A stretch of 64,000 nt of DNA, from the NCBI RefSeq assembly GCF_036588685.1, contig NC_086378.1:66278001-66342000 (forward strand), in the 5' to 3' direction. This stretch comes from Mytilus trossulus. Its lineage: Eukaryota. The first letter of the stretch is position 1. Every line of letters starts with the position of its first letter. The notes under the pieces are model-generated. The model saw only the letters and a list, made by a program, of their open reading frames with translations, was not told where the DNA came from and made no database searches. A program made the position numbers and the translations under genes. Positions 1 to 41,328 of the stretch are shown piece after piece.

Positions 1-3000
1 TCTTGTCAGTGACCTACCCGAGCAGTACTGATATCGGTTGTGTACGGCTTACTTCTCTTGACAGTGACTTACCCGATCAGTACTGATGTCGGTTGTGTAC
101 GGCTTACTTCTCTTGTCAGTGACCTACCCGATCAGTACTGATGTGGGTTGTGTACGGCTTACTTCTCTTGTCAGTGACCTACCCGAGCAGTACTGATGTC
201 GGTTGTGTACCGTTACTTCTCTTGTCAGTGACCTACCCGAGCAGTACTGTTGTCGGTTGTGTACGGCTTACTTCTCTTGTCAGTGACTTACCCGATCAGT
301 ACTGATGTCGGTTGTGTATCCTTACTTCTCTTGCCAGTGACCTACTCGAGCAGTACTGATGTCGGTTGTGTACGGCTTACTTCTCTTGTCAGTGACCTAC
401 CCGATCAGTACTGATGTGGGTTGTGTACGGCTTACTTTTCTTGCCAGTGACCTACCAGAGCAGTACTGATGTCGGTTGTGTACGGCTTACTTCTCTTGTC
501 AGTGACTTACCCGATCAGTACTGATGTCGGTTGTGTACCCTTACTTCTCTTGTCAGTGACCTACCCGAGCAGTACTGATGTCGGTTGTGTACGGCTTACT
601 TCTCTTGTCAGTGACTTACCCGATCAGTACTGATGTCGGTTGTGTATCCTTACTTCTCTTGTCAGTGACCTACCCGATCAGTACTGATGTCGGTTGTGAA
701 CGGCTTACTTCTCTTGTCAGTGACTTACCCGATCAGTACTGATGTCGGTTGTGTACCCTTACTTCTCTTGTCAGTAACCTACCCGAGCAGTACTGATGTC
801 GGTTGTGTACGGCTTACTTCTCTTGTCAGTGACTTACCCGATCAGTACTGGTGTCGGTTGTGTACCCTTACTTCTCTTGTCAGTAACCTACCCGAGCAGA
901 ACTGATGTCGGTTGTGTACGGCTTACCTTTCTTGTAAGTGACCTACCCGATCAGTACTGATGTCGGTTTCGTACCCTTACTTCTCTTGTCAGTGACCTAC
1001 TCCAGCGGTACTGATGTTGGTTGTGTGCCCTTACTTCTCTTGTCAGTGACCTACCCGATCAGTACTGATGTCGGTTGTGTACGGTTTACTTCTCTTGTTA
1101 GTAACCTACCCGATTTTTACTGATGTCGGTTGTGTACGGCTTACTTTTCCAGTCAGTGACCTACCCGAGCAGTACTGATGTCGGTTGTGTACCCTTACGT
1201 TTCTTGTCAGTGACTTACCCGAGCAGTACTGATGTCAGTTGTGTACGGCTTACTTTTCTTGTCAGTGACCTACCCGAGCAGTACTGATGTCGGTTGTGTA
1301 CGGCTTACTTTTCTTGTCAGTGACCTACTCCAGCAGTACTGATGTTGGTTGTGTGCCCTTACTTCTCTTGTCAGTGACCTACCCGATCAGTACTGATGTC
1401 GGTTGTGTACGGCTTACCTTTCTTGTAAGTGACCTACCCGATCAGTACTGATGTCGGTTGTGTACCCTTACTTCTCTTGTCAGTGACCTACCCGATCAGT
1501 ACTGATGTCGGTTTTGTACGGCTTACCTTTCTTGTAAGTGACCTACCCGATCAGTACTGATGTCGGTTGTGTACGGCTTACTTTTCTTGTCAGTGACCTA
1601 CCCGAGCAGTACTGATGTCGGTTGTGTACCCTTACTTCTCTTGTCAGTAACCTACCCGAGCAGTACTGATGTCGGTTGTGTACGGCTTACTTTTCTTGTC
1701 AGTGACTTACCCGAGCAGTACTGATGTCGGTTGTGTACGGCTTACTTTTCTTGTCAGTGACTTACCCGAGCAGTATTGATGTCGGTTGTGTACCCTTACT
1801 TTTCTTGTCAGTGACCTACCCGAGCAGTACTGATGTCGGTTGTGTACCCTTACTTCTCTTGTCAGTGACCTACTCGAGCAGTACTGATGTCGGTTGTGTA
1901 CGGCTTATCTTTCTTGTAAGTGATCTACTCGAGCAGTACTGATGTCGGTTGTGTACCCTTACTTCTCTTGTTAATGACCTACCCGATCAGTACTGATGTC
2001 GGTTGTGTACGGCTTACTTCTCTTGTCAGTGACTTACCCGATCAGTACTGATGTCGGTTGTGTACGGCTTACTTCTCTTGTCAGTGACTTACCCGATCAG
2101 TACTGATGTCGGTTGTGTACGGCTTACTTCTCTTGTCAGTGACTCACCCGATCAGTACTGATGTCGGTTGTGTACGGCTTACCTTTCTTGTCAGTGACTT
2201 ACCCGCGCAGTACTGATGTCGGTTGTGTACCCTTACTTTTCTTGTCCGTGACCTACCCGAGTAGTACTGATGTCGGTTGTGTACGGCTTACCTTTCTTGT
2301 CAGTGACCTACCCGAGCAGTACTGATGTCGGTTGTGTACGGCTTACCTTTCTTGTCAGTGACCTACCCGAGCAGTACTGATGTCGGTTGTGTACGGCTTA
2401 ATTTTCTTGTCAGTGACCTACCCGAGCAGTACTGATGTCGGTTGTGTACGGCTTACTTTTCTTGTCAATGACCTACCCGAGCAGTACTGATGTCGGTTGT
2501 GTACCCTTACTTCTCTTGTCAGTGACCTACCCGATCAGTACTGATGTCGGTTGTGTACAGCTTACTTCTCTTGTCAGTGACTTACCCGATCAGTACTGAT
2601 GTCGGTTGTGTACCCTTACTTCTCTTGTCAGTGACCTACCCGAGCAGTACTGATGTCGGTTGTGTACGGCTTACTTCTCTTGTCAGTGACTTACCCGATC
2701 AGTACTGGTGTCGGTTGTGTACCCTTACTTCTCTTGTCAGTAACCTACCCGAGCAGAACTGAAGTCGGTTGTGTACGGCTTACCATTCTTGAAAGTGACC
2801 TACCCGATCAGTACTGATGTCGGTTGTGTACCCTTACTTCACTTGTCAGTGACCTACTCCAGCAGTACTGATGTTGGTTTTTGGCCCTTACTTCTCTTGT
2901 CAGTGACCTTCCCGAGCATTACTGATGTCGGTTGTGTACGGTTTACTTCTCTTGTCAGTGACCTACCCGATCAGTACTGATGTCGGTTGTGTACGGCTTA

Positions 3001-5186
3001 CCTTTCTTGTAAGTGACCTACCCGATCAGTACTGATGTCGGTTGTGTACCCTTACTTCTCTTGTCAGTGACCTACCCGATCAGTACTGATGTCGGGTTTG
3101 TACGGCTTACCTTTCTTGTAAGTGACCTACCCGATCAGTACTGATGTCGGTTGTGTACGGCTTACTTTTCTTGTCAGTGACCTACCCGAGCAGTACTGAT
3201 GTCGGTTGTGTACCCTTACTTCTCTTGTCAGTAACCTACCCGAGCAGTACTGATGTCGGTTGTGTACGGCTTACTTTTCTTGTCAGTGACTTACCCGATC
3301 AGTACTGATGTCGGTTGTGTACCCTTACTTCTCTTGTTAGTGACCTGCCCGAGCAGTACTGATGTCGGTTGTGTACCCTTACTTCTCTTGTCAGTGACCT
3401 ACTCGAGCAGTACTGATGTCGGTTGTGTACGGCTTACCTTTCTTGTAAGTGATCTACCCGATCAGTACTGATGTCGGTTGTGTACCCTTACTTCTCTTGT
3501 TAGTGACCTACCCGAGCAGTACTGATGTCGGTTGTGTACGGCTTACTTCTCTTGTCAGTGACTTACCCGATCAGTACTGATGTCGGTTGTGTACGGCTTA
3601 CTTCTCTTGTCAGTGACTTACCCGATCAGTACTGATGTCGGTTGTGTACGGCTTACCTTTCTTGTAAGTGACCTACCCGATCAGTACTGATGTCGGTTGT
3701 GTATCCTTACTTCTCTTGTCAGTGACCTACCCGCGCAGTACTGATGTCGGTTGTGTACCCTTACTTTTCTTGTCCGTGACCTACCCGAGTAGTACTGATG
3801 TCGGTTGTGTACGGCTTACTTCTCTTGCCAGTGACCTACCCGAGCAGTACTGATGTCGGTTGTGTACGGCTTAATTTTCTTGTCAGTGACCTACCCGAGC
3901 AGTACTGATGTCGGTTGTGTACCCTTACGTTTCTTGTCAGTGACCTACCCGAGCAGTACTGATGTCGGTTGTGTACGGCTTACTTTTCTTGTCAATGACC
4001 TACCCGAGCAGTACTGATGTCGGTTGTGTACCCTTACTTTTCTTGTCAGTGACCTATGCGATCAGTTCTGATGTCGGTTGTGTACCCTTACTTCTCTTGT
4101 CAGTGACTTACCCGAGCAGAACTGATGTCGGTTGTGTACCCTTACTTTTCTTGTCAGTGACCTACGCGATCAGTACTGATGTCGGTTGTGTACCCTTATT
4201 TCTCTTGTCAGTCACTTACCCGAGCAGTACTGATGTCGATTGTGTACCCTTACTTTTCTTGTCAGTGACCTACGCGAGCAGTACTGATGTCGGTTGTGTA
4301 TCCTTACTTCTCTTGTCAGTGACTTACCCGAGCAGTACTGATGTCGGTTGTGTACCCTTACTTTTCTTGTCAGTGACCTATGCGATCAGTACTGATGTCG
4401 GTTGTGTACCCTTACTTCTCTTGTCCGTGACTTACCCGAGCAGTACTGATGTCGGTTGTGTACCCTTACTTTTCTTGTCAGTGACCTACGCGATCAGTAC
4501 TGATGTCAGTTGTGTACCCTTACTTCTCTTGTCAGTGACTTACCCGAGCAGTACTGATGTCGGTTGTGTACCCTTACTTTTCTTGTCAGTGACTTACCCG
4601 AGCAGCACTGATGTCGGTTGTGTACGGCTTACATTTCTTGTCAGTGACTTACCCGAGCAGTACTGATGTCGGTTGTGTACCCTTTCTTCTCTTGTCAGTG
4701 ACTTACCCGAGCAGTACTGATGTCGGTTGTGTACCCTTACTTTTCTTGTCAGTGACCTACGCGATCAGCACTGATGTCGGTTGTGTACCCTTACTTCTCT
4801 TGTCAGTGACTTACCCGAGCAGTACTGATGTCGGTTGTGTACCCTTACTTTTCTTGTCAGTGACCTACCCGAGCAGTACTGATGTCGGTTGTGTACCCTT
4901 ACTTCTCTTGTCAGTGACTTACCCGAGCAGTCCTGATGTCGGTTGTGTACCCTTACTTGTCTTGTCAGTGACCTACGCGATCAGCACTGATGTCGGTTGT
5001 GTACGGCTTACTTCTCTTGTCAGTGACCTACCCGAGCAGTACTGATGTCGGTTGTGTACCCTTACTTTTCTTGTCAGTGACCTACCCGAGCAGTACTGAT
5101 GTCGGTTGTGTACCCTTACTTCTCCTGTCAGTGACCTACCCGAGCAGTACTGATGTCGGTTGTGTACCCTTACTCCTCTTGTCAGT
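1..5186 (+). repeat. 54/55-bp tandem satellite array (~95 monomers; runs off the window start)
   Basis: Monomer TCTTGTCAGTGACCTACCCGAGCAGTACTGATGTCGGTTGTGTAC(CC|GGC)TTACTTC repeated head-to-tail. The CC variant is 54 bp and the GGC variant is 55 bp. Confidence 0.98.
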
Positions 5187-5825
5187 TAAGACTAGTGCCT
5201 GAGCTGGGTCAGTGTATAAAGAAGTATCTTAGTTTTAAACAATTGGTGATGTGCTGACTTGATTCCAAAAACTAGCAGGTACACTTAAACGCTCCTACAG
5301 CTTTGAATGTGATGTACAAGTGCACAATATGATGCCCCGCGGATATCTAGAAAAAGGAATTTAAAATCCCTGGGAATTGAAATAGTTGTCAACCAAGAGG
5401 GAGATTCTATGTTGTTACGTAAAACAGTGTTTGATTAACCAACTTATTGTGATAGTGTCAATACCTAATTTTAAAGGAGCAGTTTTCACAAAAATCGACA
5501 ATGACTTTAGAAGTACATGCTGATATTTAGAAAACTCGATAGTGACAAGATTTATTTATCACACAGTGACGTCTAATCTAAATTTGCAATTGGGAGATGA
5601 CTTTCAACAAGTTTAATATCTGATGTGGTTTAAAGTGTTCATGTCAGGCGTTTCTAACGCTTCCGAGGCACATAGTTTACACTGAAGTGGGGCTTTTGTT
5701 CCAACCTACAGTTTTCTATGTAACGTGTAGTAGCGATATAAGTGTTTTGTGCTGATGTTGCGTTTCGTGCCAGTTGACCTACTTTTTGTAGATTTAAAAC
5801 CTTTGAATCATGATTTTTTAGTTTT

Positions 5826-6640
5826 TGCAGAAAGCTCGAGATGGGATAGGGATCCTGCGGCGGCGTTAGCTAGCTTCCTAAAAGCTTTATATTTTAGAAG
5901 GTGGAAGACCTGGATGCTTCATACTTTGTATATAAATGCCTATATGTAACGAAGTTTCCGTCAGTCACATGCCCAATGTTCTTGACCTCATTTTCATGGT
6001 TCAGTGACTTCTTGAAAAAAAGTTAAGATTTTTTGTAATGTTAAATTCTCTCTTATTATATTTAATGGGGTACTTATATTTGGTATGTATGTGCGTACCT
6101 TGCAAGGTCCTCATGCCCGTCAGATAGTTTTCACTTGACCTTTACCTCATTTCATGGATAAATGAACAAGGTTAAGTTTTGGTTGTCAAGTCCATATCTA
6201 ATATACTAAAACTATAAGCAACAGGTCTAGTATATTCAGTGTATGGAAGGACTGTAAGGTGTACATGTTCAACTGACAGGTGTTATATGACCTTGATCTC
6301 ATTTTCATGGCTCAGTGGTCAAAGATAAGTTTTTAAGTTTTTGTCTTTTTTTAATACCATATGCAATAGGGCAACTATATTTGGTATATGGAAATATTTT
6401 GTGATCTATATGTCAGTCGCGCAGGTTTTATTTGATCTTGACCTCATGTTCACGGTTCATTGCTCAGTGTTATTTTTTTGTGTTTTGGGCTGTTTTTCTT
6501 AAACAATAGGTCAACTATATTTGTTGTATGGAAGAATTGTTAGCTGTAAATGTCTGTCTGGCATGGTTTATCTTACCTTGACCTCACTTTCATGGTTCAC
6601 TTGTCATGTTTAGTTTTCGTGGTTAATGTTAAGTTTATAT
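5826..6640 (-). mobile_element. Non-autonomous Helentron/HINE-like element with internal TGACCTCATTTTCATGG subrepeats (partial)
   Basis: Repeated TTGACCTCATTTTCATGG motifs. The fuller mirror copy at 35035-36225 ends in a short hairpin plus A-run. Class assignment is from recall of molluscan elements. Confidence 0.45.
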
Positions 6641-7369
6641 CGAGATTTAAAATTTATTATACAAATATATATTAAAGTGATAGACGAGAAGAAATTATCG
6701 AGATAAAGTACACCATGCATAAGTGTTTCTCTTGATAAACACAAGTGTATTATGCATAATTAACACGTTTTAACAACTGTTTCTGCTTATTTATGCACTA
6801 CGAGGGATTGTTTATAGAAAAATACAGCAGATGATCACATTGAAATATTTAATGCATTTTATATTGATAACAGGTTGTTTCAACTGAAATTTAAACATCC
6901 CAGTTATTAGACATACAATGTATACTATATTACTTTATTCCAATACTTTTTCCTTTAAAATTTATTTGTTCTTTCTAGATAAAATTACACCCACAGGTCG
7001 AGAGAGGAATGGGTATTGGTGGCATTTATTTGGTCCTGTTTATGCAATCGTATACGGGTTACCTTTATAGTTCCTTACGTAAGAAATGGCAAATTCTGCC
7101 CTATTCCTGCGTTTATTTTTAGCACTGGTAAGTGTTGTAAAAGATTACCAATGCATGGCATTAACACGTCCTATAAAAAGAGCAGACAGCACGATATCAC
7201 TGTACTCTAGAGAAATTTGATGGATTGAGGAACACAAATTTCAAATATCGTGAAATTTCCAAATTTTAAACGACTGAGTTTTGTACTAAAAGGTATTACA
7301 TTTTACCACGATTTTTAATTTGGCCAAGATTCAGAATAATTTTATCATATGATTTAAACAAAGAATAAA

Positions 7370-8006
7370 TGACCAATGTTTGCAAGTTCAAAATGCAAAT
7401 ATACTTCAATCAATAAAGTTAGACTTTTTTCAAGTGTCTACATAGTGGGCCGAAGACCACCCTATGTTGATATCTTAAAAAAAAACCCCAGAAGTGACAG
7501 AGCGGCAATATGTAAGATCCGTATAAGCTGTGCTCATATACTGATGATTGAAAGAGGAGACATTTAAATATTGCCAGAAATGAGAGGTACTGCTCTGTAT
7601 GTAATTCTGGTCAAATTGAAAATGAAAAACATTTTCTTTTACATTGTGAAAAAACTCAACTCATAGGGCCATATTTTACCAAAAAGTTTCAAATATAATG
7701 ATGATCCTACAAAATTTGATAAAAATGAAAATAATATAAACATATTATTAAAAAATAATTCATACACAATCCTAAAATTGACTTCCTTTTTCATTTCAGA
7801 CAGTATGAACCTGCGTAAAGCTGAACAAACTCTATAGAATTGTCAATATGTCTTTAATTCATAGTCATTGTTTATAATATTGCATAATATAGTCATTATT
7901 TACAATACTTATTATGTATGATCAATTATGTAAATATTATACCATGAGCCCTAACCATTTATTGTTGATGAGTGTGTGCTAATAAATATTTGTATTTGTA
8001 CTTGTA
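7370..8006 (+). mobile_element. 5'-truncated, decayed non-LTR retrotransposon 3' end (RTE-X/CR1-like ORF2 C-terminus)
   Basis: Frameshifted translation RAAICKIRIS..HILMIERG...RNERYCSVCNSGQIENEKHFLLHC (CCHC-type knuckle). Ends in AATAAA followed by a (TTGTA) tail at 7981-8006. Confidence 0.7.
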
Positions 8007-8377
8007 TTATGTTATGATTTTGGGGCTTCAGTGGTATAACCGAATAGGTACAAACACAGTCGCCACACGTGACGGTGCTGTCTGATATAGACAACATTGA
8101 TCTTTGCACATATCGTCAATATATTTACATCAAAATAGTTTCTAGTTAAGGGATTACTTTCGTGGGCTATACCCCCAGAACATGTACAGATTTTTAATGT
8201 ATATAATACCATGCTTTCCCGAAATCTTAAGTTTTGTCTTCGACTTTACGTCTTCTGAAGTGCTAGTTTTTTTAGACCAGTTTTCTCTTGACAAAGTTCC
8301 ATTTACTACAGAATAAACTCTTCGTTTTGTAAAAGATGACCACATTCATAACATTTATCAGATCAATTGTGTAAGTA

Positions 8378-8644
8378 AGGAGCCTGTAAATTCAGTGGTT
8401 GTTCTTTGTTTATGTGTTACATGTTTGTTTTTCATTCATTTTTTTGTACATAAATAAGGCCATTAGTTTTCTCGTTTGAATTGTTTTACATTGTCTTATC
8501 GGGGCCTTTTATAGCTGACTATGCGGTATGGACTTTGCTCATTGTTGAAGGCCGTACGATGACCTGTAGTTGTTAATGTCTATGTCATTTTGGTCTTTTA
8601 TGGATAGTTGTCTCATTGGCAATCATACCACATCTTCTTTTTTA
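8378..8644 (-). mobile_element. Interspersed repeat insertion with 6-bp TSD (left arm only)
   Basis: Flanked by TAAGTA at 8372-8377 and 8645-8650, with an empty site in the right arm (~32598-32605). Same family as 19985-20395 and 26980-27160. Confidence 0.85.
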
Positions 8645-8896
8645 TAAGTATGATAATGATGATTTTATTGACTCGTTGCTTTATTTTTGTCTCTATATTT
8701 TTTTTGTGTGTTAAAGTTCTATTTCCTTCTTTCTATGTTTTCTTGGCAACATGTGCATAAAAGACAATCTTTTACACAACCACAAAAATATCCGAGAAAG
8801 GCCCCTACACCGTTATTTCAAGAAGTCCGAAAATTTGAACGGATGATGAAATATACTAAAAGGACACTCTTGATAACTCATTAATCACGGTTTTAA

Positions 8897-9106
8897 GCGT
8901 CATTGGTTTACGTCAATTAAAAAAATAAAATCAAACTGTCACACATTTTGTATGAATAATTTTATCGTTTGTATACATCTTGTCTTTTCAATGTCAGTTG
9001 CATATACGTGGTGATTATTAATTTCATTTGCATATTTCTGATGGAGATGTCAATCATGTAGGTCTTCGACAAGTTTCTGAGAATTGACAGGAACAAAGTC
9101 ACGTGA
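8897..9106 (+). promoter_or_regulatory. Putative proximal promoter of gene A1: CRE/ATF-like CGTCA and TTACGTCA, octamer ATTTGCAT, E-box TCACGTGA
   Basis: Motifs at 8898-8902, 8908-8915, 9026-9033 and 9099-9106. All are retained upstream of A2 (~32130-32340) and A3 (~53276-53501). Confidence 0.35.
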
Positions 9107-9171
9107 TTTATGTACAACTTTAGAGTAACGAGTAGGTTTGGAGTAAATACATATTCTAGATACGATCAGAG

Positions 9172-11255
9172 ATGATCATGTTGTTTCACACAATTGTCGT
9201 AAGTTAGATCAATATTTATAACAATACAAAAATTGTATACAGTGTTTGCAATTTGTAGATGCTATCAAAAATGTTCATATTTTCAAAATAATTTAATATA
9301 TATATGCGTGTTTTTAATTCTTTTGCCTTGAGCGTCCCTTTTCTTTAGGTGGTGTTTACTTGTCCTCTAAATACTAACTCATCATATACAAAATGTACTT
9401 AGTTATTCTAACACATCTGTTGACTCTTGCATTTCCAATTTTACTCAATTGTTGGGTCTCTGCCTTCTCTTAAAAACAAAATTTGTCAATATGCCAATCT
9501 TGTGTATTAAGTTGGAACCATGCAATATAACTACAAAGCATAAATTGAAAGTTTTACTTATGTAATGTTAGTTTTGATCATAGATTTTTTACGTAGGTTG
9601 TATTAGTTGTCCTGTATAAATCTGTTGATGCTGAGGTTGCCAATTCTACAAGAATATGTATACCACCAGCACCTGAAGATGACGATTATTTTAAGGACTT
9701 AGAACAGGGAGATGCAGATATAAGGTAAATGTCTTCGTAGTAAAGTCTAGTGGAAGTTGGCTGTTGTTGGTGTAGACACTTTCAAATGAAAATGATGGAC
9801 TGTACAAGATTTTAAAGTGTCCAAAAGCCTCATGTTTTTTTTTATTAATTATATGAATCTATGACAAACCAGATTGATGTGAAAACTTGTTTATGTTACT
9901 TTGTAATATGATAATCGCAATATTTGTAATCATCTTTATCATTATCCTTATAATTATTGTTGAAATTTTTACTTTTATTGTTGAAATTTTATCTTTTATT
10001 GTTGAAATTTTAACTTTCATTATCATCATTAGTGCTAAATTTTTATTATAAAAAACGTGAACTTTGTCTGTAGTGTTTGTGTTCAATTTTTTTTTCCATT
10101 TGTAGAGCTGCAATAAATAGAAGTTTAGATAGGGACACAGCACTTAAGGTCGAAACAGATAGAGCTGTCAATGAGTTAATGTTCGAAGCTAATCCAGTGT
10201 AAGTTTTGATACTCTTATATTGCAGTTAAGTTACTAAGTAAAGAAAAGTTTTAAAAAAGGAACAAATGTAATAAAATTATCCGTTTCAATATACAAAACA
10301 ATACATCTAACGGTTACTGTCAAAGTACCAGTTTGCTAAATTATTTTACAGGATAAAAAAAACCCCATGCAAATTGATGAATAAAATAATTTTTAATGTT
10401 CATGGTACATAGATATTTTTAATCAGGATTCTATTTTTATTTAATTATAACACATTGAAGGAAGGAATATCAATTGTTGATTTTTTTTCAGGTTTGTATC
10501 GACGGTTAGAATGTGTAAATATAAATACCGATCTTATGCCCCTTCCAAAAAAATCTGGTACCAAGGGAAAATGTGTTATGTCTTGCATTACTTCTGGTAT
10601 CAAATCTGGAGACACGTATATTGTCCGTAAGTACATGTATAACTGTTAATGTTGTTAGAACCAAAGATACCCAGTCTCTATCATTACATAACAGGGAGAT
10701 AACTCTGTCAGAATCAGCTTAACGTATTAATCACGTTCTATCCTTAAGGAAATGTTAAAAACTTTTCAATGATTAAAACTAGTGCTTGTCCGAACTTCTC
10801 TATGACATTTTTTTCCAATAAAGTGTGTTGATCAAATTTTTTGAACATTGTATGTTGTTGTAAAAGGGTCAAAGTAAACATTTTGTCAAAATTGATGAAA
10901 TTTAAACGAGCCGAATTAATTTTAGTCTAGGTGTATGGTATCACCTTCATTCTTTCAATAGAGTCCCATAAGGTCTCCAGCTATCTGTTTTCCCGATTTA
11001 TTCGAATTCATTTTAACATGATACTGAGCAATTTTTATGATTACCTTTTTGTTTCATTTCAGAAAGCAACTTTGCAGTAACGTTCCGTGTAATGAATGGT
11101 GGACCCCATACGTGTACCGATGTGTTCCATCTTGTAAGCGTTCCTTTTATATGTGGATAGCTTGTCCAACTGGTCACCATAGTTTCCCGTATAAGTACAT
11201 CAGAATAGAGAAAAGGTTACCACAATGTTGTGAATGTAAAAGATACAAGTGCTGA
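9172..11255 (+). CDS. Secreted Spaetzle-like cystine-knot protein, type A, copy 1 (191 aa; 189 aa from the second ATG at 9178)
   Basis: Exons 9172-9198, 9597-9724, 10106-10198, 10492-10626, 11063-11255; all GT-AG, phases 0,2,2,2. Protein MIMLFHTIVVVLVVLYKSVDA-EVANSTRICIPPAPEDDDYFKDLEQGDADIRAAINRSLDRDTALKVETDRAVNELMFEANPVFVSTVRMCKYKYRSYAPSKKIWYQGKMCYVLHYFWYQIWRHVYCPKQLCSNVPCNEWWTPYVYRCVPSCKRSFYMWIACPTGHHSFPYKYIRIEKRLPQCCECKRYKC*. AATAAA at 11295. Frame is conserved in all three copies. Confidence 0.9.
9955..10020 (+). repeat. 21-bp minisatellite in A1 intron 2
   Basis: TATTGTTGAAATTTTWNCTTT x3. The mirror in A2 (~31200-31285) has about four units. Confidence 0.75.
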
Positions 11256-28600: not shown

Positions 28601-28821
28601 AATGTAGAAAATGGTGTATTGAACATATTTTCAACTAGACGTACGTTAATCAATCTCAAGCCCTCTTAGATTTAGTTTAATAGTTTGTTCTTTATTATGT
28701 TTTGATGCAACACCACTGCCCCAGTTTAGAGGAGGGTGAGGCGATCAAAAACCTGTCCAACCTTGATTCATTCTGGTATGTGCCAGGTACAAGTAGGGAG
28801 CCTGCTTTTCAAGGGTTGTCG

Positions 28822-29165: not shown

Positions 29166-30010
29166 TGTCGTTATTTCATATCAGCCATAGTTGTTTTTCG
29201 TAAATAATTTTGTTATAAATAACGCTGTTAGTCTTCACAAGTGAAATGTTTAATGTTTGGATAAATTTGGCATATCTTGGAATGCTAGGTTGATTAACGC
29301 CCAGTAGCAAATATGTAATGCATGTGTGGGACGGTTGGTATGACCGTCTTTATTTTGCTTGCTGATTTTGGTAGTTCGAGTATGGATAAAGAGTATGCAA
29401 CATTTTAAAAAGGAGCAGACAGAAATAAAAAAGGAACATTTAAACTCATAAGTTGAAATCAAAATGACCAAGCCATGGCAAGAATATAATCACAACATAA
29501 AACAACTGAAGACTTAGCTAGACGAATCCCATCAAAAACTTTGATAATCTCAATTGATGCACCGCGGAAGAGTTAGAAAATTATGCTCCACATTTGGCTC
29601 ACAAAATATTGTTCTTCAAAAGTCAAATTCGTTGATGTCACAATTGAGCGAAAGTGGACTGTGGCTTCGAGAATTAAAATTTATCAGTTATCATAGCAGA
29701 TGAAAGAACAAGCTCGCTATATAATCTCTGTTGTAACTGTTTTTTTTGCCTTTTATACTTTACTATGTGGTTTTTGCTCTGCATTGTTAAAAGGCATACA
29801 CTGATATGTTATTGTTCAGATCATTTTCCTTAGGTCTTAATACGGATAGTTGTTTCAGTGGAAGTCATACAACTTCTTCATATCAATATATTAAGATACA
29901 GTGATACATGTTCTTTTTTTTAAGGTATTCAAAAATTATAAGACGATTTTAAAATTTTAAAATTTTATTTTCATTAATTTACATGAAAACTGGTTTTGGC
30001 TCTCACATCT

Positions 30011-32064: not shown

Positions 32065-32959
32065 CTCTGATCGTATCTAGAATATGTATTTACTCCAGAC
32101 CTACTCTTTCCTCTAAAGTTGTACATAAACCACGTGACTTTGTTTCTGTCAATTTTCAGAAACTTGTCGAAGACCTAAATGATTGACATCTTCATCAGAA
32201 ATATGCAAATGAGATTAATAATCACTACTTATATGCAACTGACATTGAAAAGACAAGATATATACAAACGATGAAATTATTCATACAAAATATGTGACAG
32301 TTTGTTTTTATTTTTTTAATTGACGTAAATCAATGACGCTTAAAACCGTGATTTATGAAATACCATGAGTGTTCTTTTGGTATATTTTGCCTATTTTCAT
32401 CATCCATTAAAATTTTCGGACTTCTAGAAATTACGGTATAGGGGGCCTTTCTCGGATATTTTTTTGTGGCTGTGTAAAAGATAGTCTTTTATGCACATGT
32501 TGCCAGGAAAACATTGATAGAAGGAAAAAGAACTTTAACACAATTTTTTTTTATAAAAACCAAAAAAAAGCAACAAGTCAATAAAATCATCATTATCATA
32601 CTTACACAATTAATCTGATAAATGTCATGAATGTGGTCATCTTTTACAAAACGAAGTGTTTATTCTATAGTAAATGGAACTTTGTTTAGAGAAAACTGGT
32701 CTGAAAAAAATAGCACTTCAGATGACGTAAAATCGATGACAAAACTTAAGATTTCGGGAAAGCATGGTATTATATACATTAAAAATCTGTACATGTTCTA
32801 GGGGTATAGCCCACCCAAAGTAATCCCTTAACCTGAAACTATTTTGATGTTAATATATTGACGATACTGTGCAAAGATCAATGTTGTCTATTTCAGACAG
32901 CACGCGACTGTTTTTGTACCTATTCGGTTATATCACCGAAGACCCAAAATCATATCATA

Positions 32960-33590
32960 ATACAAGTACAAATACAAATATTTATTAGCACAAACTCATC
33001 AACAATAAATGGTTAAGGCTCATGGTATAATAATTACATAATTGATCATACATAATAAGTATTGTAAATAATGACTATATTATGCAATATTATAAACAAT
33101 GACAATGAATTAAAGACATATTGACAATTCTATAGAGTTTGTTCAGCTTTACGCAGGTTCATACTGTCTGAAATGAAAAAGGAAGTCAATTTTAGGATTG
33201 TGTATGAATTATTTTTTAATAAGATGATTATATTATTTTCAATGGTATCAAGTTTTGTAGGATCATCGATTATATTTGAAACTTTTTGGTAAAATATGGC
33301 CCTTTTAGTTGTGTTTTTTACAATGTAAAAGAAAATGTTTTTCATTTTCAATATGACCAGAATTACAAACAGAGCAGTATCTCTCATTTCTGGGAATATT
33401 TAGATGTCAGCCTCTTTCAATCATCAGTATTCGAACATTTATACGGATCTTACATATTGCAGCTCTGTTACTTCTGGTTTTTTTTTAAATCTCAACATAG
33501 GGTGGTCTTCGGCCCATTATTTAGACACTCTTGAAAAAGTCTAATTTATTGATTCAAGTATATTTGCATTTTGAACTTGCACAAATTGGT
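32960..33590 (-). mobile_element. Mirror copy of decayed non-LTR retrotransposon 3' end
   Basis: Reverse complement of 7370-8006. Confidence 0.7.
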
Positions 33591-33647
33591 CATTAATTCT
33601 TTGTTTAAATCATATGATAAAATTATTCATCTCAAAAAAGACAAATT

Positions 33648-33928
33648 TATGGTGGCCGGATGCGGCCATTTCGCCTTTTCGAGTTTTTGCGTTTTCTCCT
33701 TTCACTTTCACGCGAAATCGCGAAATCGAGAAATCGCGAAATCGCGATATCGAGAAAGCGAAATCGCGAAATCGAGAAATTGAGAAAGCGAAAACGCGAA
33801 ATCGAGAAAGCGAAAACGCAAAAGCGCGAAATCAAGAAAGCAAAAACGCGAAAACGCGTCAGCGAAAACGCCAAAACGCGAAAATGCGAAAAGTCGAAAA
33901 GGCGAAATGGCCGCATCCGGCCACCATA
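33648..33928. mobile_element. 281-bp MITE with long TIRs and internal CGCGAAAT/CGAGAAAG microrepeats (IS3EU-like termini)
   Basis: TIR TATGGTGGCCGGATGCGGCCATTTCGCCTTTTCGA and its reverse complement at the right end. 6-bp TSD CAAATT (33642-33647, 33929-33934). Absent from the left arm. Confidence 0.85.
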
Positions 33929-35034
33929 CAAATTTGAGTCTGGCCAAATTAAAAAATGAAAAATCATGGTAAAATTCAATACCTTTTAGAACAAAACTCA
34001 GTCGTTTAAAATTTGGAAATTTTACGATATTTGGAATTTGTGTTCCTCAATCCATTAAATTTCTCTAGAGTACAGTGATATCGTGATGTCTGCTCTTTTT
34101 ATAGGAAGGGTTAATGCCATGCATTGTAATCTTGAACAACACTTACTAGTGCTAAAAATAAACGCAGGAATAGGGCAGAATTTGGCATTTCTTACGTGAA
34201 GGAACTATAAAGGTAACCCGTATATGATTGCATAAACAGAACCAAATAAATGCCACCAATATCCATTCCTCCCTCGACCTGTGGGTGTAATTTTATCTAG
34301 AAAGTACAAATACATTTTAAAGGAAAAAGAACGTATTTGAATAAAGTAATATAGTATATGTCTAATAAGAGGGATGTTTATAGATCAGTTGAAACAACCT
34401 GTTATCAACAGAAAATTCATGAAATATTTCAATGTAATCATCTGCTGTCTTTTGCTATAAACAATCTCTCATATGTGCATAAATAAGCAGAAACAGTTGT
34501 TAAAACGTGTTAATTATGCATAATACACTTGTGTTTATCAAGAGAAACACTTATGCATGGTATACTTTATCTCGATAATTTCTTCTCATTATCACTTTAA
34601 TATATATTTGTATAATAAAAAAAATAATTGCCTCCTGCCTTTTCGACATAAACAACATGAGAGCCATCCTATGATTTTAACCAACACTTTTGGTCCATGA
34701 ATATTTTTTTTCAAATCTCGCGTATAAGATCATCATTACACATTGTTCTACGTTTTGACTTGGACCATTATTGACAGATATAACTACAAGGTGTACCATT
34801 TTTATCAAAGCTATAGATATAATTAGCATGCTTCAAATACATTGCTTTAGAAATAGGAATAAACTATTGAAATCAAATATGGCGATACGATATATATAAT
34901 TGTCCCAGCCTTCAGTCCTAATTTGAAAAGTCAACAATAGTTCTGCCAAGAGTCGCCACTCGAAACGAAATAAACTGTGAGTGCTCATTATGCATGAAGT
35001 ACAAAATATAATTTCTATTTTTGCAGGAATTAGT

Positions 35035-36225
35035 AAAACAGGAGTGCACACCCTGGAATGTCTCGCCTTCTTTTCTTTTCCTTGGTATTATGTTGATAGT
35101 CCTAAATATAAAGCTTTATTACAACTGTCACATAAACTTAACATTAACCATGAAAACTAAACATTGACCAGTGAACCATGAAAATGAGGTCAGGGTAAGA
35201 TAAACCATGCCAGACAGACATTCTACCATACAACAAATACAGTTGACCTATAGTTTAAGAATAACAGCTCAAAACACAAAAAAAGAACACTGAGCAATGA
35301 ACCGTGAAAACGAGGTCAAGGCCAAATAAAACCAGCGCGACTGATATATAGATCACAAAATATTTCCATACACCAAATATAGTTGCCCTATTGCATACAG
35401 TATTAAAAAAAGACAAAAACTTAAAAACTCATCTTTTACCACTGAGCCATGAAAATGAGGTCAAGGTCATATGACACCTGTCAGTTGGAAATGTAACCTT
35501 ACAGTCCTTCCATACACTGAATATACTAGACCTGTTGCTTATAGTTTTAGTATATGAGATATGGACTTGACCACCAAAACTTAACCTTGTTCATTTATCC
35601 ATGAAATGAGTTCGAGGTCAAGTGAAAACTATACTTAGAAATTGTGGAAACATGTGCCGCCTTTGTCAACATACATAATCATTATTTAATAAAATATCAA
35701 CTTAAATAAAACATGCTTTTTTTTTTTTTATATATTTTCCAAATTTCATCAGGACAGCTAGAAGCTAAACGTCTAAATACATGAAATGTGACTTAGAGTC
35801 CATCCTTTTCATTATAATAAATTAAAAAAATCAATGTCATTTGGACTTTCATGTAGGAAAGTTGTATCATTGTCAATGAAAGCAATAATTGATTTTTGAG
35901 TCGACCCTGCATATTTTACATGTCGTAGTCGTTCTCAACTGTAGGTGCCGACAGTTGTTGAAAAGGTCTTATAAGAGAGAATTTAACCTTACAAAAAATC
36001 TGAACCTTTCTTTTCAAGTAGTCACTGAACCATGAAAATGAGATCAAGGACATTGGGTATTTGACTAACGGAAAGTTCGTTACATGAGGCATCTATATAC
36101 AAAGTATGTAGCATCCAGGTCTTCCACCTTCTAAAATATAAAGCTTTGAAGAAGCTAGCTAACGCCGCCGCTGGATCCCTATCCCTAGCTCGAGCTTTGC
36201 GACAAAAGTCACAGACTAGACAAAA
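35035..36225 (+). mobile_element. Non-autonomous Helentron/HINE-like element with CCATGAAAATGAGGTCAAG subrepeats, interrupted at ~35630-35970
   Basis: Internal subrepeats and a terminal imperfect hairpin TGCGAC-AAAA-GTCACA before an A-run. Mirror of 5826-6640. Confidence 0.5.
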
Positions 36226-36654
36226 AAATCATGATTCAAATGTTTTAATTCTGCAAAAAGTGGGTCATCTGGCACAAACGCAACCTCAGCAAAAAACAGC
36301 TATATCGCTACCACAATTATAGTTCGCTAGAAAACTGTTTGGAACAAAATCCCCACTTCAGTGTGAACTAGGGTGCCTCCTTTTAACCACCTCATTGATT
36401 AAACTTGTTGAACATCATCTCTTAAATTTAGATTAGACTTTATGTGATAAATAAATCTTGTCACTATCGATTTTTCTAAATATCAGCATGAACTTTTGAC
36501 GTCATTGTCGATTTTTGTGAAAACTGCTCCTTTAAAATTAGGTATTGACACTATCACAATAAGGTGGTTAATCAAACCATGTTTTATATATGTTTTGGAT
36601 TATAGCTCTTCATCTTTTATATAAGTTTTGGATTTCAAATATTTTGGCAACGAG

Positions 36655-36696
36655 CATCACTGAAGAGACATGTATTGTCTAAATGCGCATCTGGTG
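36655..36696 (+). ncRNA. Minimal type-I hammerhead ribozyme motif (GAAA>TAAA) within a ~135-bp right-arm insertion (~36588-36723)
   Basis: CATCA-CTGAAGA-GACA tgtat TGTC-TAAA-TGCGCA-TC-TGGTG. Confidence 0.6.
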
Positions 36697-36946
36697 AAAG
36701 AAAATTGGTACCGTTAATTTTATTACAACATCGAATCTCTTGGTTGACAACTATTTCAATTCCAATTGATTTTGAAGTCGTTTTCCTAGATAACCGGGCG
36801 TCATATCGTGGACTTGCACATCACATTCGAAGCTGTAGGAGCGTTTTATTGTACCTGCCAGTTTTTGGAATCAAGTCAGCACATCACCAATTGTTTAAAA
36901 CTAAGGTACTTCTTTAACCACTGACTTAGCTCAAGCACTAGTCTTA

Positions 36947-39900
36947 ACTGACAAGAGAAGTAAGGCACACAACTTCATGAACCGACATCAGTTCTGCTCA
37001 GGTAGGTCATTGACAAGAGAAATAAGGGTACACAACCGACATCAGTAGTGCTCGGGTAGGTCACTGACAAGAGAAGTAAGGGTACACAACCGACATCAGT
37101 ACTGCTCAGGTAGGTCACTGACAAGAGAAGTAAGCCGTACACAACCGACATCAGTACTGCTCGGGTAGGTCACTGACAAGAGAAGTAAGCCGTACACAAC
37201 CGACATCAGTACTGCTCGGGTAGGTCACTGACAAGGAAAGTAAGGGTACACAACCGACATCAGTACTGCTCGGGTAGGTCACTGACAAGAGAAGTAATGG
37301 TACATAACCGACATAAGTAATGCTTGGGTAGGTCACTGACAAGAGATGTAAGGGTACGCAACCGACATCAGTACTACTCGAGCAGGTCACGGACAAGAGA
37401 AGTAAGGGTACACAACCGACATCAGTACTGCTCAGGTAGGTCACTGACAAGAGAAGTAAGGGTACACAACCGACATCAGTACTGCTCGGGTAGGTCACTG
37501 ACAAGGTAAATAAGGGTACATAACCGACATCAGTAATGCTCGGGTAGGTCACTGACAAGAGAAGTAAGGGAACACAACCGACATCAGTACTGCTCATGTA
37601 GGTCACTGACAAGAGAAGTAAGGGTACACAACCGACATTAGTACTGCTCAGGTAGGTCACTGACAAGAGAAGTAAGGGTACACAACCGACATCAGTACTA
37701 CTTATGTAGGTCACTGACAAGAGAAGTAAGGGTACATAACTGACATCAGTACTGCTCAGGTAGGTCACTGACAAGAGAAGTAAGGGTACACAACCGACAT
37801 TAGTACTGCTCAGGTAGGTCACTGACAAGAGAAGTAAGGGTACACAACCGACATCAGTACTACTTGAGTAGGTCACTGACAAGAGAAGTAAGGGTACATA
37901 ACCGACATAAGTAATGCTCCGGTAGGTCACTGACAAGAGAAGTAAGGGTACACAACCGACATCAGTATTACTCGAGTAGGTCACTGACAAGAGAAGTAAG
38001 GGTACACAACCGACATCAGTACTGCTCAGGTAGGTCACTGACAAGAGAAGTAAGGGTACACAACCGACATCAGTACTGCTCGGGTATGTCACTGACAAGA
38101 GAAGTAAGGGTACACAACCGATATCAGTACTGCTCGGGTAGGTCACTGACAAGAGAAGTAAGGGTACATAACCGACATCAGTAATGCTCGGGTAGGTCAC
38201 TGACAAGAGAAGTAAGGGACCACAACCGACATCAGTACTGCTCAGAAAGGTCTCTGACAGGAGAAGTAAGGGTACACAACCGACATCAGTAATGCTCGGG
38301 TAGGTCACTGACAAGAGAAGTAAGGGACCACAACCGACATCAGTACTGCTCAGATAGGTCTCTGACAAGAGAAGTAAGGGTACACAACCGACATTAGTAC
38401 TGCTCAGGTAGGTCACTAACAAGAGAAGTAAGGGTACACAACCGACATCAGTAATATTAATGCTCGGGTAGGTCACTGACAAGAGAAGTAAGGGTACACA
38501 ATCGACATCAGTACTACTCAAGTAGGTCACTGACAAGAGAAGTAAGGGTACACTACCGACATCAGTAATGCTCGAGTAGGTCACTGACAAGAGAAGTAAG
38601 GGTACACTACCGACATCAGTACTGCTCGAGTAGGTCACTGACAAGAGAAGTAAGGGTACACAACCGACATCAGTACTACTCGGGTAGGTCACTGACAAGA
38701 AAAGTAAGGGTACACAACCGACATCAGTACTGCCCGGTTAGGTCACTGACAAGAGAAGTAAGGGTACACTACCGACATCAGTACTGCCCGGGTAGGTCAC
38801 TGACAAGAGAAGTAAGGGTACACAACCGACATCAGTACTGCTCAGGTAGGTCACTGACAAGAGAAGTAAGCCGTACACAACCGACATCAGTACTGCTCGG
38901 GTAGGTCACTGACAAGAGAAGTAAGCCGTACACAACCGACATCAGTACTGCTCGGGTAGGTCACTGACAAGGAAAGTAAGGGTACACAACCGACATCAGT
39001 ACTGCTCGGGTAGGTCACTGACAAGAGAAGTAATGGTACATAACCGACATAAGTAATGCTTGGGTAGGTCACTGACAAGAGAAGTAAGGGTACGCAACCG
39101 ACATCAGTACTACTCGAGCAGGTCACGGACAAGAGAAGTAAGGGTACACAACCGACATCAGTACTGCTCAGGTAGGTCACTGACAAGAGAAGTAAGGGTA
39201 CACAACCGACATCAGTACTGCTCGGGTAGGTCACTGACAAGGTAAATAAGGGTACATAACCGACATCAGTAATGCTCGGGTAGGTCACTGACAAGAGAAG
39301 TAAGGGAACACAACCGACATCAGTACTGCTCATGTAGGTCACTGACAAGAGAAGTAAGGGTACACAACCGACATTAGTACTGCTCAGGTAGGTCACTGAC
39401 AAGAGAAGTAAGGGTACACAACCGACATCAGTACTACTTGAGTAGGTCACTGACAAGAGAAGTAAGGGTACATAACTGACATCAGTACTGCTCAGGTAGG
39501 TCACTGACAAGAGAAGTAAGGGTACACAACCGACATTAGTACTGCTCAGGTAGGTCACTGACAAGAGAAGTAAGGGTACACAACCGACATCAGTACTACT
39601 TGAGTAGGTCACTGACAAGAGAAGTAAGGGTACACAACCGACATCAGTATTACTCGAGTAGGTCACTGACAAGAGAAGTAAGGGTACACAACCGACATCA
39701 GTACTGCTCAGGTAGGTCACTGACAAGAGAAGTAAGGGTACACAACCGACATCAGTACTGCTCGGGTAGGTCACTGACAAGAGAAGTAAGGGTACACAAC
39801 CGATATCAGTACTGCTCGGGTAGGTCACTGACAAGAGAAGTAAGGGTACATAACCGACATCAGTAATGCTCGGGTAGGTCACTGACAAGAGAAGTAAGGG

Positions 39901-41328
39901 ACCACAACCGACATCAGTACTGCTCAGATAGGTCTCTGACAAGAGAAGTAAGGGTACACAACCGACATCAGTAATGCTCGGGTAGGTCACTGACAAGAGA
40001 AGTAAGGGACCACAACCGACATCAGTACTGCTCAGATAGGTCTCTGACAAGAGAAGTAAGGGTACACAACCGACATTAGTACTGCTCAGGTAGGTCACTA
40101 ACAAGAGAAGTAAGGGTACACAACCGACATCAGTAATATTAATGCTCGGGTAGGTCACTGACAAGAGAAGTAAGGGTACACAATCGACATCAGTACTACT
40201 CAAGTAGGTCACTGACAAGAGAAGTAAGGGTACACTACCGACATCAGTAATGCTCGAGTAGGTCACTGACAAGAGAAGTAAGGGTACACTACCGACATCA
40301 GTACTGCTCGAGTAGGTCACTGACAAGAGAAGTAAGGGTACACAACCGACATCAGTACTACTCAGGTAGGTCACTGACAAGAAAAGTAAGGGTACACAAC
40401 CGACATCAGTACTGCCCGGTTAGGTCACTGACAAGAGAAGTAAGGGTACACTACCGACATCAGTACTGCCCGGGTAGGTCACTGACAAGAAAAGTAAGCC
40501 GTACACAACCGACATCAGTACTGCTCGGGTAGGTCACTGACAAGAGAAGTAAGGGTACACAACCGACATCAGTACTGCCCGGTTAGGTCACTGACAAGAG
40601 AAGTAAGGGTACACTACCGACATCAGTACTGCCCGGGTAGGTCACTGACAAGAAAAGTAAGCCGTACACAACCGACATCAGTACTGCTCAAGTAGGTCAC
40701 TGACAAGAGAAGTAAGGGTACACTACCGACATCAGTACTGCCCGGGTAGGTCACTGACAAGAGAAGTAAGGGTACACTACCGACATCAGTACTGCTCGAG
40801 TAGGTCACTGACAAGAGAAGTAAGGGTACACAAACGACATCAGTACTACTCGGGTAGGTCACTGACAAGAAAAGTAAGGGTACACAACCGACATCAGTAC
40901 TGCCCGGTTAGGTCACTGACAAGAGAAGTAAGGGTACACTACCGACATCAGTACTGCCCGGGTAGGTCACTGACAAGAAAAGTAAGCCGTACACAACCGA
41001 CATCAGTACTGCTCGGGTAGGTCACTGACAAGAGAAGTAAGGGTACACAACCGACATCAGTACTGCCCGGTTAGGTCACTGACAAGAGAAGTAAGGGTAC
41101 ACTACCGACATCAGTACTGCCCGGGTAGGTCACTGACAAGAAAAGTAAGCCGTACACAACCGACATCAGTACTGATCGGGTAGGTCACTGACAAGAGAAG
41201 TAAGGGTACACAACCGACATCAGTACTGATCGGGTAGGTAACTGACAAGAAAAGTAAGCCGTACACAACCGACATCAGTACTGCTCAGGTAGGTCACTGA
41301 CAAGAGAAGTAAGGGTACACAACCGACA
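36947..41328 (-). repeat. 54/55-bp tandem satellite array (~81 monomers), inverted relative to 1-5186
   Basis: Reverse complement of the same monomer, with an internal 1736-bp higher-order duplication. Confidence 0.98.

What the first reader, a model, noticed from the sequence alone, without database searches (positions are those of the whole stretch)
1..41328. >=41-kb gene-bearing palindrome capped by oppositely oriented satellite arrays
Seen: satellite(+) - flank - A1 - B1 - 2.85-kb spacer - B2 - A2 - flank - satellite(-), so the pairs are convergent. The third A+B copy begins within ~470 bp of the far end of the second satellite. Inference: the satellite was part of the duplicated unit and may act as a recombination platform for copy-number change of the module. 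Inverted arms favour conversion over deletion, as known for amplicon palindromes.
Basis: partly seen in the sequence, partly recalled or inferred. Interest (0 to 1): 0.7.

Follow-up and report, generated by a model that had tools for sequence, protein, structure and literature searches.

The report
Old triplicated mussel cystine-knot gene pair
This is an old, imperfect mirror-image duplication in a blue mussel of a pair of unstudied genes for secreted, growth-factor-like proteins; the copies occasionally swap sequence, the layout is ordinary, and the gene pair is the part worth following.

Summary
The layout is real. A 54/55-bp satellite, a flank and genes A and B are mirrored across 19319-22168, and a third, direct A+B copy lies at 41761-53630.

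It is not an amplicon-type palindrome. Only 76-80% of the arms align, at 85% identity, and the longest exact match is 118 bp. Each module has its own closest relative in other Mytilus species, so the copies are old paralogs, not mis-joined haplotypes.

Exchange is episodic. A roughly 4-kb arm-to-arm tract made A1 a chimera, but the youngest tract (2% divergence) joins the two direct copies.

The satellite junction was duplicated with the arm. However, the arrays now carry private variants and different higher-order repeats, copy 3 has no upstream satellite, and no visible breakpoint lies in an array. The recombination-platform idea is unsupported, and genome-wide dispersal could not be tested.

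A and B are intact five-exon paralogs under purifying selection. They encode secreted proteins with an NGF/Spätzle-type cystine knot and have no Pfam hit. They travel as a pair, so they may form a heterodimer (weak structural support).

The parts
1..5186 (+). Left satellite array, 95 monomers (49 of 54 bp, 46 of 55 bp), truncated by the window edge; lowest monomer distances at lags 2, 34, 28
5187..8776 (+). Left flank, shared only with the right arm; holds dispersed repeats (e.g. 8373-8646 insertion absent from the right arm)
6124..10200 (+). Inferred arm-to-arm exchange tract (non-coding L-R divergence 5.8% over 6124-9800 against 9-12% elsewhere); covers A1 exons 1-3; ends approximate
9172..11255 (+). 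Gene A1, 5 exons (9172-9198, 9597-9724, 10106-10198, 10492-10626, 11063-11255), 191 aa; same as M. trossulus LOC134723671 (P0019); chimeric: 5' like A2, exon 4 like P0015/P0016
16005..18799 (+). Gene B1, 5 exons (16005-16019, 16621-16739, 17031-17135, 17911-18048, 18577-18799), 199 aa; 187/189 identical to edulis/galloprovincialis P0004
19319..20395 (.). Nest of dispersed repeats at the inversion centre (left-arm homology ends at 19318)
   Evidence: many contigs pile up on these bins
20396..22168 (-).
22710..25690 (-). Gene B2, 5 exons, 190 aa (earlier stop than B1); RefSeq model P0013 covers exons 1-4 only
30011..32064 (-). Gene A2, 5 exons, 191 aa; 191/191 to M. trossulus LOC134723672 (P0008)
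29966..30815 (-). Youngest exchange tract, module 2 versus module 3 (51625-50776): 16 differences in 816 columns (2.0%); covers A exons 4-5
32473..36946 (-). Right flank, mirror of 5187-8776, with its own insertions
36947..41328 (-). Right satellite array, 79 monomers (68 of 54 bp, 9 of 55 bp, 2 of 60 bp), higher-order repeat of 31-32 monomers; partial monomer 36947-36979
41329..41760 (.). 432-bp segment between the array and module 3; no counterpart beside module 1 or 2 except a short dispersed repeat
44125..46774 (-). Gene B3, 5 exons, 194 aa; 194/194 to M. trossulus LOC134723674 (P0010)
50822..53201 (-). Gene A3, 5 exons, 188 aa from the second Met; 188/188 to M. trossulus LOC134723675 (P0009); intron 3 holds a partial copy of exon 2 (51772-51902)
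41761..53630 (-). Module 3: direct repeat of 20361-32472, with no flank or satellite upstream

Best explanation
A small tandem-and-inverted gene cluster in a Mytilus mussel, older than the split of the blue-mussel species. The repeated unit is a head-to-tail pair of paralogous genes, A and B. Each encodes a secreted protein: signal peptide, acidic helical pro-region, then a Tyr/Trp/Lys/Cys-rich cystine knot of the NGF/Spätzle/coagulogen type. The pair was copied once in direct orientation (modules 2 and 3) and once inverted (modules 1 and 2). The inverted copy carried along neighbouring DNA that happened to include a satellite array. The copies then diverged about 10-15% in non-coding DNA and gathered separate transposon insertions. 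They have exchanged sub-kilobase to 4-kb tracts now and then, between inverted and direct copies alike, so A1 and A2 are mosaics. The satellite is a passenger that evolves by slippage and unequal exchange within each array. Shown: layout, divergence, mosaic pattern, open reading frames, splice joints, fold class. Inferred: order of events, direction of exchange, passenger role of the satellite, and that the genes stay paired because A and B act together, most likely as a disulfide-linked dimeric extracellular ligand released from a pro-form (about 0.45 for the heterodimer step alone).
For: Arms 76-80% alignable, 85% identical. All 6 of 6 genes have open frames and GT-AG introns; pN/pS is 0.41-0.43 for the 3 A pairs and 0.15-0.22 for the 3 B pairs. 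8 of 8 predicted A2/B2 introns appear as CT..AC joints in three probable RNA runs (6, 7 and 7 of 8) and 0 of 8 in the fourth run (4 of 23 listed runs laid, likeness 90, so the transcripts may be paralogues or from another species). Separate relatives per module: A3 groups with edulis and galloprovincialis copies at 100/99; M. edulis CAG2188621 matches A2 (2 differences in 74) and B2 (1 in 73); its neighbour CAG2188622 matches B1 (2 in 73). Mosaicism: 296 runs among 543 thinned informative sites against 359.9 +/- 11.0 expected; 5 of 9 scanned segments reach permutation p<0.01. A1 sides with A2 at 13 of 16 informative residues in 1-83 but at 2 of 11 in 84-143 against P0015 (Fisher p=0.002; p=0.029 against P0016). 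Arrays: 17 of 30 common variants are private to one array; distinct higher-order repeats. Fold: top VIA rows are NGF (Z 6.2, rmsd 3.9, 91 aligned), Spätzle (6.0, 7.0, 82) and coagulogen (5.2, 4.5, 137); Atlas first hits are Spaetzle clusters at 0.93 and 0.90. A-B complex: weak support, 0.60 against best control 0.01, runs agree in at least 93% of contacts, partner pLDDT at least 81.
Against: The order of events is not resolved: three copies without outgroup DNA give a reticulate pattern, and the L=R segments could partly reflect genealogy rather than conversion. The tract bounds 6124-9800 were chosen after seeing the data; the unbiased scan gave 5373-10666 (0 of 5000 block permutations). A1 and A2 still differ at 6 of 83 residues in the 'converted' part, more than A3 differs from its edulis orthologue (1), so the donor may have been another A2-like copy or the event is old. 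The B tree has no starred branch. No fold match is strong alone: Foldseek best E 0.005, no Z of 8 or more, model pLDDT 68.8. The complex score lies in the range reached by only 5 of 78 solved complexes and by all 4 mismatches that passed (of 180). Solved cystine-knot dimers exist, so the pass may be from likeness, and homodimers were not tested. Nothing beyond position 1 is visible.
Confidence: 0.75

Rival explanations
1. One reading: the satellite is a locus-specific recombination platform that drives copy-number change of the A+B module, and the inverted arms are maintained by conversion as in amplicon palindromes.
For: Identical satellite-flank junction in both arms. The right array lies between the two direct modules, 433 bp from the end of copy 3's homology. 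One arm-to-arm tract is likely. Other Mytilus records hold a more distant A/B type (P0017, P0002) with no M. trossulus match among the proteins returned, so the set of modules may vary. 13 of 30 common satellite variants are shared.
Against: Arms only 85% alike. The arrays differ (Fst-like 0.136, 0 of 200 permutations, though monomers are not independent; different higher-order repeats). No monomer near copy 3's upstream end or elsewhere outside the arrays. The visible homology ends lie outside the arrays, and the 41761 end is bounded on module 2's side by a transposon nest, so it need not be a breakpoint. The youngest tract is between direct copies.
Confidence: 0.12
2. Assembly artefact: the arms are two divergent haplotypes of one locus joined back to back.
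For: Mussel assemblies can merge haplotypes in gene clusters (PMC10138031, passages). No contig laid spans the centre. The centre is made of repeats.
Against: Modules 1 and 2 each have their own match in M. edulis, as consecutive accessions on contigs of the same 196,454-bp length (CAG2188621 and CAG2188622). Paralogue differences (B1-B2: 11 of 190 aa) exceed cross-species orthologue differences (B1-P0004: 2 of 189). A third copy is also present.
Confidence: 0.05
3. Same genomic history, but A and B are not signalling ligands. They are structural or matrix proteins (coagulogen-like gelling, or byssus/periostracum-type) that use the cystine knot as a scaffold for an aromatic, basic surface, and they are amplified for dosage.
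For: The last 110 residues hold 12-13% Tyr, 5.5-6.4% Trp, 9-10% Lys and at most 1 Asp. Coagulogen is the third VIA row and the only one of the top three whose alignment extends into the pro-region (model 31-189). No dibasic or R-x-x-R site in residues 21-95 of P0019, P0008, P0009 or P0010. Two-gene dosage amplification suits bulk products (inference).
Against: The features search places both proteins with Spaetzle/NGF/IL-17 clusters. The family is small (8 representatives at E<=0.001 among 1.84 billion). No tissue information came with the runs. A byssus literature search returned 2 papers, neither on mussel proteins of this kind.
Confidence: 0.3
4. The satellite array is the core of a Helentron/HINE-type mobile element, as described for oyster satellites, and its place here is an insertion unrelated to the genes.
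For: Oyster satellite-like arrays are carried by HINE elements, and related elements are reported for M. galloprovincialis (PMC7492417, passages).
Against: No excess of 11-14-bp direct or inverted matches between the right array's two flanks, and no unusual hairpin at three junctions (z 0.83, -0.1, -1.31). An old, decayed element is not excluded.
Confidence: 0.15

Closest known systems
Mammalian sex-chromosome amplicon palindromes (human X and Y)
   Same: Long inverted arms bearing genes, a short centre, signs of arm-to-arm exchange; arm length (about 19 kb) falls within the 8-140 kb range given in PMC8327919 (passages).
   Different: Arm identity is 85% with 20-24% unalignable, against up to 99.99% and over 99.9% for Y palindromes (PMC3723533, abstract start in the search listing). 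Exchange also involves a direct third copy. Nothing suggests a non-recombining chromosome.
Ordinary segmental/tandem gene clusters with ectopic gene conversion, e.g. Mytilus CRP-I clusters
   Same: Local paralogue clusters of secreted Cys-rich proteins with tandem copies and turnover (PMC10138031, passages).
   Different: Here the unit is a two-gene module, all 6 of 6 copies are intact and under purifying selection, and the fold is a growth-factor cystine knot rather than a knottin.
Spätzle / NGF / coagulogen cystine-knot proteins (PF16077, PF00243)
   Same: Hydrophobic N-terminus, pro-region, C-terminal two-finger cystine knot ending CC-x-C; top structural rows; Atlas neighbours.
   Different: No Pfam hit for A or B; only 6 of 34 family members touch PF16077, best E 0.14. 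Extra cysteines (12 in the A knot region, 11 in B), including a likely finger-tip pair as in the DAN/sclerostin group (pairing inferred; weak sclerostin profile hits E 0.04-0.17). Unusually aromatic and basic.
Heterodimeric cystine-knot hormones encoded by two paralogous subunit genes (bursicon alpha/beta, GPA2/GPB5; recalled, not from a call)
   Same: Two paralogous subunit genes; here they are kept together through three duplications, and a second Mytilus locus seems to pair two further paralogues by accession order.
   Different: Structural match to GPA2/GPB5 is low (8enb Z 3.1, rmsd 3.2, 78 aligned); A and B have long pro-regions; heterodimer formation has only weak computational support.

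Membership tests
Amplicon palindrome | Two long inverted arms around a short centre | tested here: met
   5187-19318 versus 36946-22169, plus the satellite arrays
Amplicon palindrome | Arm-to-arm identity of about 99% or more | tested here: not met
   85% over 76-80% of the arms; longest exact match 118 bp
Amplicon palindrome | Ongoing conversion that keeps arms closer to each other than to orthologues in other species | tested here: not met
   B1 differs from P0004 at 2 of 189 and from B2 at 11 of 190; only A1 exons 1-3 are closer to the other arm
Amplicon palindrome | Unique spacer | tested here: not met
   1.8 kb is shared with module 3, and the rest holds dispersed repeats
Satellite-mediated NAHR platform | Duplication breakpoints inside the arrays | tested here: inconclusive
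   no visible breakpoint is in an array, but the left array runs off the window
Satellite-mediated NAHR platform | Arrays homogenised with each other | tested here: not met
   17 of 30 common variants private; different higher-order repeats; 3 shared haplotypes among 74 and 38
Satellite-mediated NAHR platform | Satellite confined to this locus | not testable with these tools
   no genome held; metagenome scans found nothing and are uninformative
Spätzle family (PF16077) | C-terminal growth-factor cystine-knot fold | tested here: met
   knot region pLDDT about 76-85; the top three VIA rows are NGF, Spätzle and coagulogen; Z about 6 is middling
Spätzle family (PF16077) | Pfam gathering score | tested here: not met
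   no hit for A or B; best E 0.14 in distant relatives
Spätzle family (PF16077) | Signal peptide and pro-domain | tested here: inconclusive
   hydrophobic N-terminal helix and acidic helical region seen; no signal-peptide predictor was run; no dibasic or furin-type site
Spätzle family (PF16077) | Disulfide-linked dimer | tested here: inconclusive
   CC-x-C motif present; A-B complex weak, 0.60 against 0.01; homodimer not tested
Spätzle family (PF16077) | Proteolytic activation and Toll-receptor binding | not testable with these tools
   needs experiment
HINE/Helentron-borne satellite | Sub-terminal inverted repeats and 3' hairpin flanking the array | tested here: inconclusive
   no excess over shuffles; decay with age is possible

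The most novel reading that the evidence does not exclude
A and B are the two subunits of an undescribed heterodimeric Spätzle/neurotrophin-like ligand of mussels, with a second such pair on another chromosome. The module is duplicated only as a pair to keep the ratio of subunits. Exon-scale exchange between inverted and direct copies shuffles the first finger of the knot (exon 4) while the C-terminal core stays fixed, giving up to nine A-B combinations per haplotype. This would be a candidate endogenous ligand system for molluscan Toll-like receptors.
Probability: 0.15. Interest if true: 0.68.

Novelty: new member of a known kind. Interest (0 to 1): 0.33.

Why it matters
As chromosome structure it is a clear but ordinary case of a decayed inverted duplication with occasional exchange. 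It is a useful counter-example to reading every gene-bearing inverted repeat as an amplicon palindrome.

The cargo matters more. It is a small family found so far only in Mytilus, one scallop and three unnamed sequence sources among the representatives. It has an NGF/Spätzle-like fold and no Pfam assignment. A 2020 mussel paper states that Spätzle homologues had not been described outside arthropods except in one clam (PMC7773633, passages).

If the A/B pair is a heterodimeric ligand, it gives a concrete, testable candidate for mollusc Toll or neurotrophin-type signalling. If it is structural, it is a new use of the fold.

Tried and rejected
No whole genome was held, so satellite dispersal and units beyond position 1 stay open. 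Two metagenome scans with satellite patterns found 0 matches; this is uninformative for a mussel satellite. The run search listed no RNA holder on record, which is no evidence on expression. No contig spans the centre, which is no evidence against the join.

Long open frames in the satellite were rejected as coding: 46 of 95 and 11 of 79 monomers are not 54 bp, and the GAE_BBS1 match to one such frame had 0 passing stretches. Rfam gave 0 matches in the window. The single-sequence PDB search gave 0 matches. The first fold job, on a 10-sequence alignment, was too poor to use (pLDDT 45.7). HINE hallmarks were not above chance. tblastn with 7 family proteins found no fourth A or B gene in the window. 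Three look-ups of earlier scan notes returned nothing.

Literature searches that did not show this family or locus: Mytilus+spaetzle (4 papers), Mytilus+cystine knot (20 of 23 listed), spatzle/mollusc/bivalve/neurotrophin (15 of 35 listed), the motif LPQCCEC (0 papers), byssus terms (2 papers), Mytilus satellitome (7 papers). Subscription papers and supplements were not seen, and byssus or shell proteomes in them could list these proteins.
Full report
Observation. A self-comparison with the satellites masked shows a chain of inverted matches from 5187/36946 to 19318/22169 and a chain of direct matches from 20361/41761 to 32472/53630. Tandem Repeats Finder places one 54/55-bp satellite at 1-5186 and its reverse complement at 36980-41328. 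The arms, however, are old. 11,255 of 14,132 left-arm bases and 11,215 of 14,778 right-arm bases align, at 85% identity with gaps, and the longest exact match is 118 bp. Primate X palindromes reach 99.99% (PMC8327919, passages).

The centre. Of the 2,850-bp interval, about 1.8 kb (20396-22168) is the 3' tail of module 2 and is 86% identical to the tail of module 3. The remaining 1.08 kb holds repeats that recur at several places in the window and on which many contigs pile up. There is no unique spacer. Module 3 is a direct copy of module 2 that ends about 430 bp upstream of A3; no flank and no satellite monomer occur beyond it.

The genes. Each module holds two five-exon genes with the same intron phases. 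All 6 of 6 have open frames and GT-AG introns, and pN/pS is 0.15-0.43 in the 6 within-family pairs. A2, A3 and B3 are identical to named M. trossulus proteins, and B2 matches one over exons 1-4; P0019 from the same species is A1. Laying 4 of 23 listed runs on 19300-36900 gave joints at 8 of 8 predicted introns of A2 and B2: 6, 7 and 7 of 8 in three probable RNA runs and none in the fourth. At likeness 90 these may come from paralogues or a sister species, so they support the gene structure, not expression of one copy.

Age. Each module has its own closest relative elsewhere. A3 groups with M. edulis and M. galloprovincialis copies at 100/99. B1 differs from P0004 at 2 of 189 residues but from B2 at 11 of 190. 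Two fused gene models with consecutive accessions in M. edulis match modules 2 and 1: CAG2188621 differs from A2 at 2 of 74 and from B2 at 1 of 73, and CAG2188622 differs from B1 at 2 of 73. The duplications therefore predate the species split, and mis-joined haplotypes are unlikely. Orientation in the other species is unknown, and the B tree has no well-supported branch.

Exchange. In a three-way alignment filtered to 6,033 well-aligned columns of 13,208, 543 thinned informative sites fall in 296 runs against 359.9 +/- 11.0 expected. 5 of 9 scanned segments reach permutation p<0.01. The youngest is between the direct copies: 16 differences in 816 columns across A exons 4-5, against 9-10% to module 1. 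A shorter module 1 / module 3 tract covers B exon 5 (10 of 364).

Between the arms, non-coding divergence is 5.8% (172 of 2,961) over 6124-9800, against 9.1%, 10.1% and 12.2% in three other segments. These bounds were chosen by eye; an unbiased scan gave 5373-10666, with 0 of 5,000 block permutations reaching it. A1 agrees with A2 at 13 of 16 informative residues in its first 83 but at only 2 of 11 in the next 60 when set against P0015 (p=0.002; weaker against P0016, p=0.029). It does not hold as a maintenance process or as a preference for inverted copies. The order and direction of events cannot be fixed from three copies alone.

Satellite. Both arrays meet the flank at the same base and share a consensus, so the array edge was copied with the arm. 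Since then they have gone separate ways. 46 of 95 left monomers but 9 of 79 right monomers are 55 bp. 7 and 10 of 30 common variants are private, and 13 are shared. The right array has a 31-32-monomer higher-order repeat, while the left has its lowest distances at lags 2, 34 and 28.

No visible homology end lies in an array. The end at 41761 is matched on module 2's side by a transposon nest, so it need not be a breakpoint. The simpler reading (inference) is that satellite and flank were neighbouring DNA caught between modules 3 and 2 and then mirrored. Whether the left array holds a breakpoint, and whether the satellite is dispersed, could not be tested. HINE hallmarks, as described for oyster arrays (PMC7492417, passages), were not above chance.

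What the proteins are. Pfam has no hit for A or B. A profile search of 1.84 billion representatives found 8 proteins at E<=0.001: Mytilus paralogues, one scallop protein and three from unnamed sources. A model on a 34-sequence alignment (mean pLDDT 68.8, about 76-85 in the C-terminal half) shows an N-terminal helix, two acidic helices and a two-finger beta domain. Foldseek gave no match at E<=0.001, but its leading rows are sclerostin and neurotrophins. VIA-align ranks NGF (Z 6.2, rmsd 3.9, 91 aligned), Spätzle (6.0, 7.0, 82) and coagulogen (5.2, 4.5, 137) first. These Z values are middling, but 23 of the first 23 rows are cystine-knot proteins by their titles and my knowledge of those families. 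The Atlas features search agrees (0.93 and 0.90). So A and B look like Spätzle/NGF-type cystine knots in structure but fail the Pfam membership test.

How they may work. A and B stay together in all three modules here and in fused gene models from two other species. Accession order suggests a second Mytilus locus with two further paralogues side by side. This points to subunits of one dimer (inference). The complex prediction gave weak support: 0.60 against a best control of 0.01, at least 93% agreement of contacts, partner pLDDT at least 81. Only 5 of 78 solved complexes and all 4 passing mismatches (of 180) scored that low, solved cystine-knot dimers may explain the pass, and homodimers were not tested. 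The strongly aromatic, basic knot region and the lack of a furin-type site keep a structural role open.

Literature seen. Passages of PMC7773633, PMC7492417, PMC8327919, PMC10138031 and PMC11304980; the abstract start of PMC3723533 in a listing. No supplements were read. The searches showed no description of this family or locus in their listings. The comparison with bursicon and GPA2/GPB5 gene pairs is recalled.

Verdict. The feature is real but ordinary as chromosome structure: a decayed inverted plus direct triplication with occasional exchange and a passenger satellite. The uncharacterised paired cystine-knot genes give it modest interest (0.33).

Noticed in passing
window 57288-63965: Tandem duplication of 3,339 bp at 99.85% identity (3 mismatches, 2 gap openings). 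Each unit holds a minus-strand frame with a sub-threshold Somatomedin B match (E 0.0017). It is either a very recent exon duplication in a neighbouring gene or an assembly artefact.
   Followed up: partly
window 57563-57907 (-) and P0007: The first 22 residues of the M. galloprovincialis fused model P0007 match this frame (7 differences in 22), suggesting the same neighbour lies upstream of A3 in that species.
   Followed up: partly
P0022/P0024 clusters (other Mytilus chromosomes): Two further paralogue types occur in several copies with near-consecutive accessions in three Mytilus records, suggesting a second duplicated two-gene module.
   Followed up: no
window 22710-22905: The RefSeq model of B2 (P0013) stops after exon 4, yet exon 5 is open and a joint at 22905-23423 is seen in two runs, so the model may be truncated.
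   Followed up: partly
window B1/B2/B3 exon 5: The three B copies end at different in-frame stops (199, 190 and 194 aa) after the last cysteine; the stop variants are shared with relatives in other species.
   Followed up: no
window 23552-24174 (runs X5, X7): Two runs carry a spliced variant whose inserted letters fit the divergent B type P0002, which has no copy in the window (compared by eye).
   Followed up: no
window 33642-33936, 55245-55947, 12485-12580, 47400-47474: Small elements with terminal inverted repeats or hairpin shape (MITE-like), each in one copy only; the first encloses an 8-bp microsatellite.
   Followed up: no
window 51772-51902: Partial copy of A exon 2 inside intron 3 of A3, next to a dispersed repeat.
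   Followed up: no
satellite monomer: The 54-bp unit has a faint internal 27-28-bp period, suggesting origin from a dimer.
   Followed up: no
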